Shown piece after piece: positions 36,988 through 39,430 of a stretch of 64,000 bases of DNA. Under the pieces are notes generated by a model that searched no databases, was not told where the DNA came from, and was given only the letters and a program-made list of their open reading frames with translations. The stretch's first letter is position 1, and the number at the start of each line of letters is the position of its first letter. The stretch spans positions 64,001 through 128,000 of IMG/VR virus record IMGVR_UViG_3300018080_000099. The stretch is one strand, 5' to 3'. The position numbers and the translations under genes are program-made. This stretch comes from a virus.

Positions 36988-38460
36988 TTAGGCAGGAGTC
37001 TTAATCTGATACTTCTCCAGCTTCTTGAGCATGATTCCAAGTGGAGTGAAATCCTCTGCCTTGAAAATGGCTTCAAGGATGCTCGGGGAGAATCCGGATA
37101 CCAGTCCAACGTCCTTATGGAAGGCAGTCGATGGCGAACCAGCGTGTCCTGCCGTGTTCCAGTAGACGGTCTTCGGACGGGTGTAACCGGCATCATCCCA
37201 CTTCTTCAGGCATCCCTCGACCTCAGTCATATCTCCTCGGTGAGAAGTACCACCGTGGAACTGCATGTCGGAGATGATAAGAAGCATGTTCGGAATCTGG
37301 TCGTTCGTAGCACTGAACATCTGTGCGTGGTTCAGAAGCATGTCAAGAGCCTTGTCGATTCGGGTAGAACCAACAGCACCATCGAAAATACCGTAGCTGG
37401 CTCCCCATCCGTACCTGTCGCTTGCACGACCCATCGGGTTTGCACCCCTTCCGTAAGCCTCAGAGAAGGTGTGTCCCTTCCAATCAGTCAGCTTCGACTC
37501 GGAGCAGAACTGGATGAACTTACGGTGGAATGGGCTGTCCTGTGGAATTCTGTCAGAGCAGTACAGAGCCAGACCAGTTGACACATGCCATGCCTCTACG
37601 CTTCCACCGATACGCGAACTCATGGAGCCTGAAGTATCACAGATTACCATGATACGAAGCTTCGAGTCACCAACCCAGTTCGGCATTGCCGTGAACTGAA
37701 GGTCAGCCGTCTTGGCATCGCCGTTCATAACGGTACGAACAAGGTCGTGTGGGAATACCACACCAGCGTTAATCTTAGCTTCGCCCTTCTCAACCTTGGT
37801 CTTGAAGGCTTCGAACCTTGCGGCGTCATGCTTGGTGAATGCCTTGGTGTAACGAGACATAGCTACCGATGGTACATGCTGGTAGTTAATCTCAGTCCAC
37901 TGGTTAGCGCACATAGCACGCTCAGGCACGTTCTTACGTCCTTCTGCAAGCCATCGACGGAAGTCACCAATGTCCTTCAGGAGCTTCTTCTGTCGAAGGC
38001 TCTTCAGGATGTTAGTATCCTTTCTGTCTGCCCACTTACAGGCTAGACCGTCCTTTTCGGCAACTGCGTCAGCCCACAGGGATGTAGCAACGGCCTCAAC
38101 GTCTGTACCATTGAATGTACGAAGGTCATCCCAACGACCAAGCTCAGGGATAGAACCGATGTTCACCTGAAGCCATGCCGGTGCAGTCTCTGCCAGCCAG
38201 CGAGCGCAGTCACGGAATCCGGAACGGTTTCCGGCTCCACCACGACAGTCACGAAGCCAGAACAGAAGCTTCACGGCGAGTTCGTAGTTTCCACTGAACC
38301 ATACATTCTTGAACAGTTCGAGTGCGGTCGTCTGGTTAGCGTAGAAATCCCTCTTGGTCTTTGTCTTGTAGAGGGAGCCTGCCTTGGAGAAAAATTCCAC
38401 TCCGTGGTCATAAGAGTGGTCGTACTGGGTTGCGCCTTCGTTGGTCTTCATCTTAGCCAT
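36988..38460 (-). CDS. vWA-domain protein with MIDAS motif, possibly TROVE / Ro60-like
   Basis: 490 aa; the DxSxS MIDAS motif ICDTSGSM and the LLIISDMQ block are seen in the C-terminal third; the N-terminal TROVE assignment is inference only. Confidence 0.5.
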   Translation of the reverse strand: MAKMKTNEGATQYDHSYDHGVEFFSKAGSLYKTKTKRDFYANQTTALELFKNVWFSGNYELAVKLLFWLRDCRGGAGNRSGFRDCARWLAETAPAWLQVNIGSIPELGRWDDLRTFNGTDVEAVATSLWADAVAEKDGLACKWADRKDTNILKSLRQKKLLKDIGDFRRWLAEGRKNVPERAMCANQWTEINYQHVPSVAMSRYTKAFTKHDAARFEAFKTKVEKGEAKINAGVVFPHDLVRTVMNGDAKTADLQFTAMPNWVGDSKLRIMVICDTSGSMSSRIGGSVEAWHVSTGLALYCSDRIPQDSPFHRKFIQFCSESKLTDWKGHTFSEAYGRGANPMGRASDRYGWGASYGIFDGAVGSTRIDKALDMLLNHAQMFSATNDQIPNMLLIISDMQFHGGTSHRGDMTEVEGCLKKWDDAGYTRPKTVYWNTAGHAGSPSTAFHKDVGLVSGFSPSILEAIFKAEDFTPLGIMLKKLEKYQIKTPA

Positions 38461-38567
38461 GAGAGACCTCCTTCACTGAAAAGGTTACAGGTTGGAGTTA
38501 TTTCGCCTTGGAAATAGTTATGTGCTGAATCCAACCTTCAAATCTAATCTACTCAATATAGTAGAAA

Positions 38568-38636
38568 CAGGATGATTTTTCATTGGTTTCGTTTTGAGCG
38601 AAATTAATGTTTTAGTTTGCTGAACTCATCCTTCAT
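38568..38636. ncRNA. structured RNA element, family copy 1 (AGGATGA ... GTTTGCTGAAC TCATCCTTCA)
   Basis: 7-bp terminal helix AGGATGA / TCATCCT enclosing a small hairpin TTCGTTTTGAGCGAA; the same architecture recurs at 59157 and 62449 with a compensatory change. Confidence 0.5.
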
Positions 38637-39430
38637 TCTCTGCGCTTTCTTCACAGAATTTTATTTATACTTCTAGGGGTATTTTACCGCTCAAGAAAAG
38701 TCGTTCAGGATATTACCATTTGCCAGTGGCTCCGGGGTCTCCTACGCATTGCGCCGTGAAGCGCCGCTCGTCCCGTAGCATTTCCTTTCGTTTCCATACT
38801 CGAAGTATGGTGCTACCATCGCTAGTCGCCATATCCCGAAGGACTTAGACGAACATTACTACTTTAAGAAGTTTATCAGTTTGTTATGCTGAAAACATCC
38901 TTCGACAACTTTTCAAAGAACAATTTTGAAGCGGGCCCAGCGGTGCTTTGCACTCTTCGGGAGTTCCGACGTCGACCTAAGGACGCTTTTCTAAGCCCTG
39001 TCTATAATACACACCACAGAATGTTGAAAGGTTGTATTTGGTTTTACTCAGGAATCACCTTCAAGAACCCGAGTGAAGTGCTTTTACCCAGCTTCGGACA
39101 GGGCTGGCAACACTCCCGAAGGAATGTTCCCATAACACTTCTTAGTCGAATGCACATTACTGTGCTAGAATGGGTTTGCCGTATCCATTCTTCAAGTGTG
39201 TTTGTCTGTAAAAGAACGAAACTCAGATTGGTCGCTTCCCCCTTTTGATACCCAGAGGAGGTCGCCTTTTCTTTAACTGGGTACTTTGGCATCATACAAG
39301 TATATGATTAATTGTATTTTGCTGGACCCAATCTTCTGTTTCAATACCCTAAATATAACATATTTCCATAGGGTTGTCAATAGGTATTTAGTCCAAAAGT
39401 CGAAAAAGTTCGTGAACTGGCAAGGTTTGG

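What the first reader, a model, noticed from the sequence alone, without database searches (positions are those of the whole stretch)
36988..39430. vWA (possibly Ro60-like) gene followed by a ~1-kb ORF-free region holding structured small-RNA candidates, a possible Y-RNA-like module
Upstream of the 490-aa vWA/MIDAS gene lies a long non-coding stretch (38461-39430). It contains one full copy of a repeated structured element (38568-38636), two half-copies of its 3' motif (38884 and 39307), and several perfect hairpins such as CCATACTCGAAGTATGG. In bacteria Ro60 orthologs sit next to their Y RNAs and often next to rtcB. A phage-encoded Ro60 / Y-RNA-like pair next to a tRNA island would be new.
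Basis: inference. Interest (0 to 1): 0.8.

Follow-up and report, generated by a model that had tools for sequence, protein, structure and literature searches.

The report
Ro60-like protein with tRNA-mimic RNAs
A phage gene for a ring-shaped, Ro60-like RNA-binding protein lies behind an array of small structured RNAs that share one conserved "handle" and carry tRNA look-alike parts; the same RNA-protein pairing recurs in many phages, bacteria and archaea, and these RNAs do not appear to have been described.

Summary

The 970-nt gap upstream is non-coding. On the gene strand, behind a strong sigma-70-like promoter, it holds five copies of one RNA element. Five more copies sit between tRNAs 13-24 kb away.

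Nine of the ten copies have a 7-bp closing stem with compensatory changes, an invariant CAGCA loop segment and a 3' G. This handle encloses a variable insert: an anticodon-arm-like hairpin, a T-arm-like hairpin, or a circularly permuted tRNA as in YrlA. The tenth copy is a minimal hairpin with no insert and an A after the stem.

The handle occurs next to DUF2828 genes, on the same strand, in 70 of 80 bacterial and archaeal loci and in most viral loci. These include Felixounavirus and cluster-L-type mycobacteriophages, and an rtcB-RNA array-DUF2828 operon in Ruminococcus. Rfam 15 has no matching family.

Phage Ro60/Y RNA pairs are already known, so this is a new variant of a known kind. The partner RNAs themselves seem to be new.

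The parts
36988..38460 (-). Gene for a 490-aa Ro60-fold protein: an N-terminal helical ring domain (Pfam DUF2828) and a C-terminal vWA/MIDAS domain (Pfam DUF7788)
39352..39380 (-). Sigma-70-like promoter (TTGACA, 17-nt spacer, TG, TATATT) 16 nt upstream of the first element. Probable start of the RNA array plus gene transcript.
   Evidence: 11 of 12 consensus matches with an extended -10 TG. A consensus match only; function is inferred.
39224..39336 (-). Handle RNA element 1 (113 nt). Stem AGAUUGG/CCAAUCU, loop GUCCAGCAAAA.
39167..39193 (-). Handle element 2, a minimal copy. The 7-bp stem AGAAUGG/CCAUUCU closes directly over the loop AUACGGCAAAC with no insert, and an A rather than a G follows the stem. 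A 150-nt GC-rich structured stretch of unknown role follows, down to about 39015.
   Evidence: Covariance model R1: 26.9 bits, E 3e-4. Also.
38706..38903 (-). Handle RNA element 3 (198 nt). Stem AGGAUGU/AUAUCCU with one G-U pair. The insert includes the hairpin CCAUA-CUUCGAG-UAUGG (plus-strand 38794-38810), which is anticodon-loop-like. This is the only copy preceded by GUCGAAG, a match to the YrlA motif GNCGAAN0-1G.
38568..38634 (-). Handle RNA element 4 (67 nt). Stem AGGAUGA/UCAUCCU. Insert hairpin UUUCG-CUCAAAA-CGAAA (5 bp, 7-nt anticodon-like loop).
   Evidence: The orthologue in L003 keeps both stems through compensatory changes: AGGGUGA/UCACCCU and UUUCU-AUCAAAA-AGAAA.
38488..38539 (-). 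Handle RNA element 5 (52 nt). Stem AGGUUGG/CCAACCU. It ends in GUAACCUU, 8 nt before the Shine-Dalgarno AGGAGG of the gene, so it is also the 5' leader of the mRNA.
   Evidence: The same position and tail are kept in L003, L006, L007, L009 and L011, with a G:C to A:U exchange in the stem.
51630..51741 (-). Handle RNA element 6, in the tRNA island. The insert is a permuted tRNA-like domain: T-arm CUGGUUCGAUUCCAG, a closed acceptor-like hairpin, a D-arm-like hairpin and an extra GAAA hairpin.
   Evidence: MFE z-score -4.5.
54415..54547 (-). Handle RNA element 7. Permuted tRNA-like insert: T-arm GUGGGUUCGAAUCCCAC, acceptor hairpin UCCCCCGA/UCGGGGGA, D-arm GCCCAACUGGUGAGGC.
   Evidence: Rfam YrlA sub-threshold hit at 54435-54505, 23.3 bits against a gathering score of 69. 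MFE z-score -3.7.
59157..59219 (-). Handle RNA element 8 (63 nt). Insert hairpin UUCGA-CUGCUAA-UCGAA, anticodon-arm-like.
   Evidence: A hairpin with the same CUGCUAA loop is found in the third element of Mycobacterium phage Jobypre.
59810..59936 (-). Handle RNA element 9. In order: anticodon-arm-like hairpin (CUGUCAA loop), T-arm GGGGGUUCGAGUCCCUC, closed acceptor hairpin, D-arm GUGUAAAGGUAGCAC. This amounts to a whole tRNA permuted at the D-arm/anticodon-arm junction.
   Evidence: The Rfam tRNA model scores 28.9 bits on part of it, just under its threshold of 29.
62450..62536 (-). Handle RNA element 10 (87 nt). Anticodon-arm-like hairpin AAUUGC-CUUUUAA-GCAAUU followed by T-arm-like UGUGG-UUCAAAU-CCACA.
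30860..32209 (+). RtcB RNA ligase gene. A conserved neighbour about 5 kb from the Ro60-like gene, transcribed from the opposite strand.
   Evidence: Pfam RtcB E 7e-65. The same neighbourhood is seen in L001, L006, L007, L008 and L009.

Best explanation
The locus is an operon for a Ro60-type ribonucleoprotein built from a divergent protein family and a previously unrecognised set of partner RNAs.

Proposed sequence of events:
1. A promoter at about 39380-39352 drives a minus-strand transcript. It carries five small RNA elements in tandem, followed by the mRNA of the DUF2828/DUF7788 protein.
2. Five more elements are co-transcribed with tRNAs in the tRNA island.
3. The elements are cut out of these precursors. 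In the island this would be a by-product of RNase P and 3'-end tRNA processing.
4. Each RNA has a constant handle: nA, then a 7-bp stem formed by its two ends, an 11-nt 5' internal-loop segment nU(U/A)CAGCAAnn with invariant CAGCA, an A-rich 3' segment, and a G after the stem.
5. The ring-plus-vWA protein binds this handle, as Ro60 binds the conserved stem of Y RNAs.
6. The variable insert mimics part or all of a tRNA: an anticodon arm with a CU-NNN-AA loop, a T arm, or a permuted T-arm/acceptor/D-arm domain as in YrlA. The RNP thereby presents tRNA look-alikes to tRNA-recognising enzymes. It could tether them, as Y RNA tethers PNPase to Ro60, or titrate them.
7. RtcB is a conserved neighbour, the phage carries its own tRNA set, and a Felixounavirus homologue has a reported anti-defence phenotype. 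The likely role is therefore to keep the tRNA pool working, or to blunt RNA-targeting host defences, during infection.
8. The promoter-proximal copy, fused to the mRNA leader, could let the protein feed back on its own translation.

Shown here: the protein fold, the RNA structure and its covariation, and the genomic association. Inferred: binding, processing, and the decoy or tether function.
For: Protein:
- Foldseek agrees: E 8.6e-8, full-length alignment.
- The MIDAS residues are conserved.

RNA in the window:
- Ten motif copies, all on the gene strand.
- Nine have a perfect 7-bp closing stem (G-U pairs allowed) followed by G. The tenth, at 39193, closes as a minimal hairpin followed by A.
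- Stem sequences differ between copies but stay complementary: AGGUUGG, AGGAUGA, AGAUUGG, AGGAUAA and others.
- Unconstrained MFE folding recovers the closing stem in 7 of 7 elements tested.

RNA in other loci:
- Across 41 viral loci and the window, 92 of 186 gene-strand motif hits have a closing stem, against 7.9% with shuffled stems and 1 of 59 on the opposite strand.
- In an 82-sequence handle alignment, all 7 pairs show changes on both sides (132 cells, 20 extra pair types). C16, G18, C19, A20 and G31 are invariant.

Association with the gene:
- Elements lie within a few hundred nt of DUF2828 genes, on the same strand, in loci down to 24-35% protein identity.
- In 80 bacterial and archaeal loci there are 215 same-strand hits against 9 opposite-strand hits, and 70 loci are positive.
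- Most viral loci are positive.
- Salmonella phage Mushroom and Mycobacterium phage Jobypre each have three elements just downstream of the gene.
- Ruminococcus flavefaciens FD-1 has rtcB, six elements and DUF2828 in one string.

tRNA mimicry:
- 21 of 79 distinct inserts have a hairpin of at least 4 bp with a CUNNNAA loop, against 0.36 +/- 0.59 in shuffles.
- Three window elements, and the long elements of Jobypre and Mushroom, have the order T arm, closed acceptor hairpin, D arm.
- Rfam YrlA aligns to this domain at 39.3, 37.7 and 23.3 bits.

Processing and transcription:
- In a T4-like contig an element starts 4 nt after a tRNA CCA end and stops 3 nt before the next tRNA.
- In the window, the gaps to the flanking tRNAs measured are 10-19 nt.
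- A promoter-like site sits just upstream of the array.

Precedent:
- Y RNAs are encoded next to rsr and rtcB and are processed from one precursor (PMC4201824).
Against: - There are no expression or binding data. Co-location does not prove that the protein binds the handle.
- Sequence profiles do not connect the protein to TROVE.
- The handle lacks the GNCGAAN0-1G motif of bacterial Y RNAs. Only the copy at 38903 has it.
- Rfam YrlA stays far below its gathering score of 69 bits.
- In the published work, Bas63 gp130 alone, from a plasmid or moved into T7, counters the ppl defence. That activity therefore does not need phage-encoded handle RNAs.
- The reverse test is incomplete. Of 47 stem-closed handle hits found by DNA pattern in viral contigs, only 18 had a DUF2828 gene in the stretch held. 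One T4-like 14.8-kb stretch has elements and no such gene.
- My stems were selected for perfect pairing, so the '100% paired' figure is circular. Only the shuffled-stem control and the diversity of pair types carry weight.
- The anticodon-arm stems do not resemble those of the phage's own cognate tRNAs.
Confidence: 0.7

Rival explanations
1. The elements are cis-acting leader structures. They would be protein-binding operators, attenuators or a riboswitch-like sensor controlling expression of the DUF2828 gene, not trans-acting RNAs.
For: In the window's clade the proximal copy always sits directly 5' of the Shine-Dalgarno sequence, with a conserved GUAACCUU tail. Most arrays lie upstream of the gene on the same strand.
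Against: - Five window copies lie 13-24 kb away between tRNAs.
- Copies lie downstream of the gene in Mushroom, Jobypre, L014, L022 and L035.
- Up to six copies occur in tandem, with different tRNA-like inserts.
- A leader function for the proximal copy is compatible with the main explanation and is included in it.
Confidence: 0.12
2. The elements are degenerate or unconventional tRNA genes or pseudogenes of the phage tRNA island (armless or permuted tRNAs). They would have no link to the DUF2828 protein, and the conserved motif would be a processing signal.
For: They sit among tRNAs on the same strand. Several carry T arms and anticodon-like loops. The Rfam tRNA model gives 28.9 bits on one of them, against a threshold of 29. 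The 7-bp stem followed by G resembles an acceptor stem plus discriminator base.
Against: - ARAGORN and Rfam do not call them tRNAs.
- There is no D arm in the tRNA position, and extra linkers separate the T arm from the 3' strand of the stem.
- The long forms have the acceptor stem closed by a loop.
- Arrays occur next to DUF2828 genes in bacterial chromosomes with no tRNA island, for example R. flavefaciens and Veillonella.
- The invariant CAGCA has no counterpart in tRNA.
Confidence: 0.08
3. The repeats are DNA-level features with 7-bp terminal inverted repeats: phage-specific promoters or terminators, or small mobile repeats.
For: A roughly 20-nt conserved motif recurs at intergenic sites. 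Some copies end in U-rich tails such as ...CCUGUUUUU.
Against: - The two stem halves change together between copies and between species, while the distance between them varies from 18 to 190 nt. This fits an RNA or single-strand constraint, not a promoter.
- Strand bias relative to the gene is strict: 215 against 9.
- The inserts carry independent, conserved RNA hairpins.
Confidence: 0.04
4. The RNAs are real, but their handle is bound by another factor, such as RtcB, RNase P or a host protein. The DUF2828 protein would then act on other substrates, such as misfolded or damaged RNAs threaded through its ring.
For: gp130 works against ppl without phage handle RNAs. RtcB is a recurrent neighbour. 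Handle elements occur in a stretch with no DUF2828 gene.
Against: RtcB is absent from the fetched Veillonella, Thermoactinomyces and Fervidobacterium loci, which still pair the RNA array with DUF2828. DUF2828 is the only protein gene found next to the arrays in every locus examined.
Confidence: 0.06

Closest known systems
Bacterial Ro60 (Rsr) with YrlA/YrlB Y RNAs, as in the Salmonella rsr-yrlBA-rtcBA operon and in M. smegmatis (Chen et al. 2014, PMC4201824; Rfam RF02553)
   Same: - A ring-plus-vWA protein is encoded next to several small RNAs, and often next to rtcB.
- The RNAs pair their 5' and 3' ends into a stem with an internal loop.
- At least one RNA carries a tRNA-like domain in the order T arm, closed acceptor stem, D arm.
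- Shorter companion RNAs exist (YrlB).
- The RNAs are processed from a common precursor.
   Different: - The protein is not recognisable as TROVE by sequence; it is DUF2828/DUF7788.
- The conserved RNA motif is a 7-bp stem plus nU(U/A)CAGCAA and a 3' G, not GNCGAAN0-1G.
- YrlA models score 23-39 bits against a threshold of 69, and only through the tRNA-like part.
- There are many more copies per genome: ten in this window.
- Many copies carry only an anticodon-arm-like hairpin.
- Copies are interleaved with tRNA genes.
Phage Ro60 homologues with Y-RNA-like partners: Thermus phage phiLo phiRo60 with Yrl1/Yrl2 (PMC12135203; PDB 9L5Y), and mycobacteriophages, CcrColossus and Bacillus phage G as cited there
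   Different: phiRo60 is a TROVE-domain protein, and its RNAs were picked by a CGAA motif. Here both the protein family and the RNA handle differ, and the RNAs carry tRNA-part mimics.
Bas63 (Felixounavirus) gp130, reported as a counter of the ppl defence system (bioRxiv 10.1101/2024.10.10.617714)
   Different: That work only guessed that some annotated tRNAs might be Y RNAs. It identified no partner RNA, and it showed that the protein works alone against ppl. I did not fetch the Bas63 sequence, so the homology is inferred.
Metazoan Y RNAs (Rfam RF00019)
   Same: Stem formed by the two ends, a large internal loop, a conserved protein-binding segment on the 5' strand near the stem, and several paralogues per genome.
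   Different: No sequence or covariance-model similarity, no pol III features, and different inserts.

Membership tests
Ro60 / TROVE protein family | TROVE domain detectable by sequence profile (Pfam PF05731 or similarity to Ro60 sequences) | tested here: not met
   Pfam at E<=0.1 gives only DUF2828 and DUF7788. phmmer and an HMM of 35 homologues find no Ro60 among PDB sequences at E<=10. Profile-profile comparison (HHpred) was not run.
Ro60 / TROVE protein family | Fold: N-terminal alpha-helical (HEAT-like) ring followed by a C-terminal vWA domain | tested here: met
Ro60 / TROVE protein family | MIDAS motif (DxSxS ... T ... D) in the vWA domain | tested here: met
   D274, S276, S278 and T365 are invariant and D397 is present in at least 90% of 35 homologues.
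Ro60 / TROVE protein family | Binds Y RNAs and misfolded RNAs | not testable with these tools
   Only genomic association is available.
Pfam DUF2828 + DUF7788 / PHROG 850 | Scores above the curated thresholds over the full length | tested here: met
   114.4 bits against a cut-off of 29, and 75.1 against 27.1. PHROG 850 E 1.8e-87 over residues 3-484. 2614 homologues with E<=1e-5.
YrlA (Rfam RF02553) | Covariance-model score at or above the gathering score (69 bits) | tested here: not met
   Best window hit is 23.3 bits at 54435-54505. Related long elements score 39.3 bits (Jobypre) and 37.7 bits (L056).
YrlA (Rfam RF02553) | tRNA-like domain in the order T arm, closed acceptor-like stem, D arm | tested here: met
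   Elements 51630-51741, 54415-54547 and 59810-59936. This part aligns to the YrlA model in Jobypre. The seven other window elements lack it.
YrlA (Rfam RF02553) | GNCGAAN0-1G motif in the 5' strand of the basal stem (PMC4201824) | tested here: not met
   Only the copy at 38903 reads GUCGAAG. The others have nnnGAAG, and other clades have only AAG or none. In the YrlA alignment of Jobypre the basal stems are unpaired or deleted.
Y RNA in the broad sense (partner RNA of a Ro60-type protein) | 5' and 3' ends pair into a stem that carries a conserved segment and encloses a large loop or variable module. Encoded beside the protein gene. | tested here: met
   Closing stem with covariation plus invariant CAGCA. 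Adjacent to and on the same strand as the gene in 70 of 80 cellular loci and in most viral loci.
Y RNA in the broad sense (partner RNA of a Ro60-type protein) | Physically bound by the Ro60-type protein | not testable with these tools
   Needs immunoprecipitation or EMSA.
tRNA | Cloverleaf with D, anticodon and T arms in canonical order, detected by tRNA finders | tested here: not met
   None of the ten elements is called by ARAGORN or reaches the Rfam tRNA threshold. Arm order is permuted or arms are missing.

The most novel reading that the evidence does not exclude
The short handle RNAs could be a programmable panel of anticodon-arm decoys or baits. Each would display the anticodon loop of a different tRNA (loops read as CAA, GCU, UUU, GUC, UCG here; CAU, GUU, GAU, GAA, UUG, UGA elsewhere) on a common handle held by a Ro60-like ring. 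The RNP would soak up, sense or redirect anticodon nucleases and other tRNA-targeting defence or toxin enzymes, or deliver cleaved tRNAs to RtcB. It would be a widespread RNA-based counter-defence or tRNA-surveillance system shared by phages, bacteria and archaea.
Probability: 0.2. Interest if true: 0.9.

Novelty: new variant of a known kind. Interest (0 to 1): 0.7.

Why it matters
Ro60 and its Y RNAs are a classic RNP whose function in bacteria is only partly understood.

- **Reach.** DUF2828 proteins are far more common in phages than canonical Ro60: 684 phage records, including Felixounavirus, Listeria, Staphylococcus, Enterococcus, Campylobacter, Vibrio and mycobacterial phages. Relatives were also found in 136 stretches of bacterial and archaeal genomes.
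- **An open question becomes testable.** One member of the family has a published anti-defence phenotype but no known RNA partner. A conserved, easily recognised RNA handle beside these genes gives concrete candidate partners in culturable systems.
- **A link to tRNA biology.** Many inserts look like isolated anticodon arms with different "anticodons". That ties the RNP to tRNA-directed conflict and repair: RtcB, tRNA islands and anticodon nucleases.
- **Annotation.** Dozens to hundreds of intergenic "gaps" in phage tRNA islands could be annotated as RNA genes, and the family could be added to Rfam.

Tried and rejected
- **Hidden coding region under a reassigned stop codon.** The window has an amber-suppressor-type tRNA. 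Rejected: every frame of 38461-39430 carries at least 2 of each stop codon, and the two longest ORFs have no homologues.
- **Rfam.** No Y_RNA, YrlA or other family reaches threshold in the gap or on the elements, in the window or in four other loci. Only weak YrlA hits appear on the tRNA-like inserts.
- **Sequence-level link to Ro60.** phmmer and an HMM of the family against PDB sequences found nothing. Only fold comparison shows the relationship.
- **RNAalifold on fixed 106-nt windows upstream of 23 start codons.** It predicted no structure. MAFFT could not keep the two stem halves in register across inserts of variable length, and several windows cut the element. The conserved 5' and 3' blocks are nevertheless visible in that alignment.
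- **Covariance model R1 built from handle-only constructs.** It does not tolerate the long inserts and recovered only the minimal hairpin copy at 39161-39196 with a significant score. I used a transparent pattern-plus-complement scan with shuffled-stem and opposite-strand controls instead.
- **Promoter or mobile-repeat reading of the motif.** Rejected because the two stem halves covary.
- **Mimicry of the phage's own tRNAs at stem level.** Not seen. The anticodon-arm-like hairpins share only the loop pattern with the cognate phage tRNAs.
- **Reverse association, from the RNA motif to the gene.** Inconclusive, because the fetched stretches are short.
- **Literature.** No paper in the held library describes DUF2828 function or this RNA motif. 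The Burroughs & Aravind 2016 RNA-repair survey could not be opened.
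Full report
**1. What is at the coordinates**

The window comes from a large phage; the same sequence sits on a 264-kb metagenomic contig. It has 47 tRNA genes, nearly all on the minus strand between 47.4 and 64 kb.

The flagged ORF (36988-38460, minus strand, 490 aa) is followed upstream by a 970-nt gap. Beyond the gap lies an Hsp20 gene at 39431-39916.

The gap is non-coding:
- Each of the six frames holds at least two TAA, two TAG and two TGA codons.
- The two longest ORFs have no homologue in any fetched locus.
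- Gene callers left the gap empty.
- Relatives with 71-77% identical proteins keep a 460-650-nt gap between the same two genes.

**2. The protein**

*Family assignment.* Pfam assigns DUF2828 (E 7.8e-33) plus DUF7788 (E 6.5e-21) and no TROVE domain. PHROGs assigns family 850, 'RNA-binding protein' (E 1.8e-87). Neither the protein nor an HMM of 35 homologues finds Ro60 among PDB sequences.

*Fold.* An AlphaFold2 model built on those homologues is confident: pLDDT 90.9, pTM 0.90.
- Foldseek's eight best hits are all Ro60, aligned over the full length.
- The MIDAS residues D274, S276, S278 and T365 are invariant, and D397 is nearly so.

So the protein has the Ro60 architecture but belongs to a family that sequence profiles keep apart from TROVE.

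*This is not a new insight.* The family has 684 hits in phage records. Some are annotated 'Ro-like RNA binding protein' (mycobacteriophages), others 'RNA-binding protein', 'vWFA protein' or 'DUF2828'. A preprint notes that gp130 of the Felixounavirus Bas63 resembles Ro60, sits just upstream of the tRNA genes and counters the ppl defence system.

**3. The RNA elements in the window**

TGCTGAAnnCAnCCTTC gives 11 matches within two mismatches, against 0.74 expected. Nine of these, plus a weaker copy at 39177 found by the repeat search, make ten copies with the same orientation.

On the minus strand, which is the strand of the gene and the tRNAs, the motif reads GA-AGGNUGN-nUUCAGCAAAC. In nine copies the seven bases after GA have a perfect complement 42-188 nt further on, followed by G. 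The tenth copy, at 39193, closes at once into a minimal hairpin and is followed by A.

The stems differ between copies yet stay paired. Examples are AGGUUGG/CCAACCU, AGGAUGA/UCAUCCU, AGAUUGG/CCAAUCU and AGGAUAA/UUAUCCU. Unconstrained folding recovers the closing stem in all seven elements tested.

The ten elements fall in two groups:
- **In the gap (five):** 39224-39336, 39167-39193, 38706-38903, 38568-38634 and 38488-38539.
- **In the tRNA island (five):** 51630-51741, 54415-54547, 59157-59219, 59810-59936 and 62450-62536. The gaps to the flanking tRNAs I measured are 10-19 nt.

A sigma-70-like promoter (TTGACA, 17 nt, TG, TATATT; 11 of 12) lies 16 nt upstream of the first element. The last element ends 8 nt before the gene's Shine-Dalgarno sequence. 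The simplest reading is one transcript: RNA array plus mRNA.

**4. What the inserts look like**

- **Permuted tRNA-like domain.** Three island elements contain a T arm (GGUUCGAnUCC), then an acceptor-like stem closed by a loop, then a D-arm-like hairpin. This is the circularly permuted tRNA mimic described for YrlA (PMC4201824). Rfam YrlA hits one of them at 23.3 bits, far below its threshold of 69.
- **Anticodon-arm-like hairpin.** Other elements hold a 5-bp hairpin with a 7-nt loop of the form CU-NNN-AA, the commonest anticodon-loop pattern among the phage's own tRNAs (21 of 47). Examples are CUCAAAA at 38634, CUGCUAA at 59219, CUUUUAA at 62536 and CUGUCAA at 59936.
On the transcribed strand its loop reads CUUCGAG, a close variant ending AG.
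- **Statistics.** Over 79 distinct inserts from all loci, 21 have a hairpin of at least 4 bp with a CUNNNAA loop. Shuffles give 0.36 +/- 0.59, with a maximum of 3.
- **T-arm-like hairpin alone.** Some inserts carry only this.

**5. Is it more than this phage?**

*Close relatives.* They keep two or three elements in the same gap, with compensatory changes in both the closing stem and the inner hairpin.

*Viral loci.* I examined 36 loci from a viral collection, with proteins 35-77% identical, together with the relatives and the window.
- 92 of 186 gene-strand motif hits have a closing stem.
- The rate with shuffled stems is 7.9%.
- On the opposite strand it is 1 of 59.

- It gives 215 hits on the gene strand against 9 on the other, with 70 loci positive.
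- The usual layout is an array of 2-6 copies in the few hundred nt before the gene.
- Isolates include Ruminococcus flavefaciens, Veillonella atypica, Thermoactinomyces and Fervidobacterium.

*Handle alignment.* In 82 aligned handles, C16, G18, C19, A20 and the 3' G are invariant, and all seven pairs change on both sides. The stems were selected as perfect, so only the diversity and the controls count as evidence.

*Cultured phages and one operon.*
- Salmonella phage Mushroom has three elements among the tRNAs just downstream of the gene.
- Mycobacterium phage Jobypre has three in the gap after its 'Ro-like' gene. The middle one is a YrlA-like permuted tRNA (39.3 bits). In that alignment only the tRNA-like part fits the model and the basal stems do not.
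- In R. flavefaciens FD-1 the order is rtcB, six elements, DUF2828, all on one strand. This mirrors the Salmonella rsr-yrlBA-rtcBA arrangement.
- In the window's clade RtcB is a constant neighbour about 5 kb away.

**6. Mechanism**

Shown:
- a Ro60-fold protein;
- a structured RNA family with a constant handle and tRNA-part inserts;
- a tight, strand-specific genomic association that spans phages, bacteria and archaea.

Inferred:
- **Binding.** The protein binds the handle, by analogy with Ro60 binding the conserved stem of Y RNAs.
- **Processing.** The RNAs are released from polycistronic precursors. In a T4-like contig one element begins 4 nt after a tRNA's CCA and ends 3 nt before the next tRNA. 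tRNA processing alone would free it.
- **Function.** The inserts engage tRNA-recognising enzymes, either tethering them or acting as decoys, in the service of tRNA maintenance or counter-defence.

One caution: Bas63 gp130 alone protects T7 against ppl. At least that activity does not require phage handle RNAs.

**7. Comparison and novelty**

The system works like Ro60 with YrlA/YrlB, but it fails the sequence-level membership tests for both TROVE and YrlA, and it lacks the GNCGAA motif.

Phage Ro60/Y RNA pairs are already known (PMC4201824, PMC12135203), and the Ro60 likeness of this protein family has been noted. I could not find the handle RNA family in Rfam 15 or in the paper library. The Bas63 authors only speculated that some annotated tRNAs might be Y RNAs.

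I therefore rate it a new variant of a known kind, with fairly high interest. It gives candidate RNA partners for a very common phage protein family and points to anticodon-arm mimicry.

**8. Limits**

- There are no expression or binding data.
- The reverse association (from RNA to gene) is incomplete.
- HHpred-type comparison with TROVE was not possible.
- One relevant survey paper could not be read.

Noticed in passing
window 52247-52501 (minus strand): A 255-nt match to bacterial RNase P RNA class A lies inside the tRNA island (75.6 bits, E 7.6e-22, below the gathering score of 100). The alignment keeps P1-P4 (AGGAAAGUC) and the ACAGAAnCCnGCUUAC core but lacks about 110 nt of the specificity domain. 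It may be a phage-encoded minimal RNase P RNA.
   Followed up: partly
window 34202-34278 (plus strand): A tRNA with anticodon CUA (called tRNA-Pyl by ARAGORN; Rfam tRNA 54.5 bits) is the only tRNA on the plus strand and lies away from the island. It could be an amber suppressor. Stop-codon use in the phage genes was not examined.
   Followed up: no
window 39015-39165 (minus strand): A GC-rich, strongly structured 150-nt stretch follows the minimal handle hairpin. It has the repeated UCCCGAAGGA / CUUCGGGAGU hairpins (repeats D5 and I8). It has no handle of its own and no Rfam match, and its role is unknown.
   Followed up: no
window 50015-50108, 50348-50437, 54314-54403, 63290-63380: Several ARAGORN tRNAs are unusually long for their type: Cys 94 nt, Gln 90 nt, Asp 90 nt, Asn 91 nt. 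They may carry insertions or introns, or their boundaries may be over-extended.
   Followed up: no
L079 1192-4431 (Ruminococcus flavefaciens FD-1, ACOK01000079.1): A compact same-strand string: RtcB, six handle RNAs (2441-2900), then the DUF2828 protein. It is a cellular counterpart of the Salmonella rsr-yrlBA-rtcBA operon and a good experimental system.
   Followed up: partly
L228 about 3450-6300 (IMG/VR T4-like contig): Handle elements are wedged exactly between tRNA genes, 4 nt after a CCA end and 3 nt before the next tRNA. The 14.8 kb held contains no DUF2828 gene. The neighbours are an RNase T-like exonuclease and topoisomerase II subunits.
   Followed up: partly
L009 3744-4856: A close relative of the window phage has a TnpB-like gene (Pfam Cas12f1-like_TNB) inserted just upstream of the Hsp20 gene. 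The window has no such gene.
   Followed up: no
L046 (Salmonella phage Mushroom, NC_041923.1): The annotation table places the tRNA features on the strand opposite to the one on which Rfam finds them. This is a strand inconsistency in the listing. The tRNAs, the handle elements and the DUF2828 gene are in fact co-oriented.
   Followed up: partly
window 29848-30465 (plus strand): A SpoU-family RNA 2'-O-methyltransferase gene lies next to RtcB. With the three N6/N4 DNA methyltransferase genes nearby in the source contig, this adds to the RNA-modification and repair flavour of the neighbourhood.
   Followed up: no
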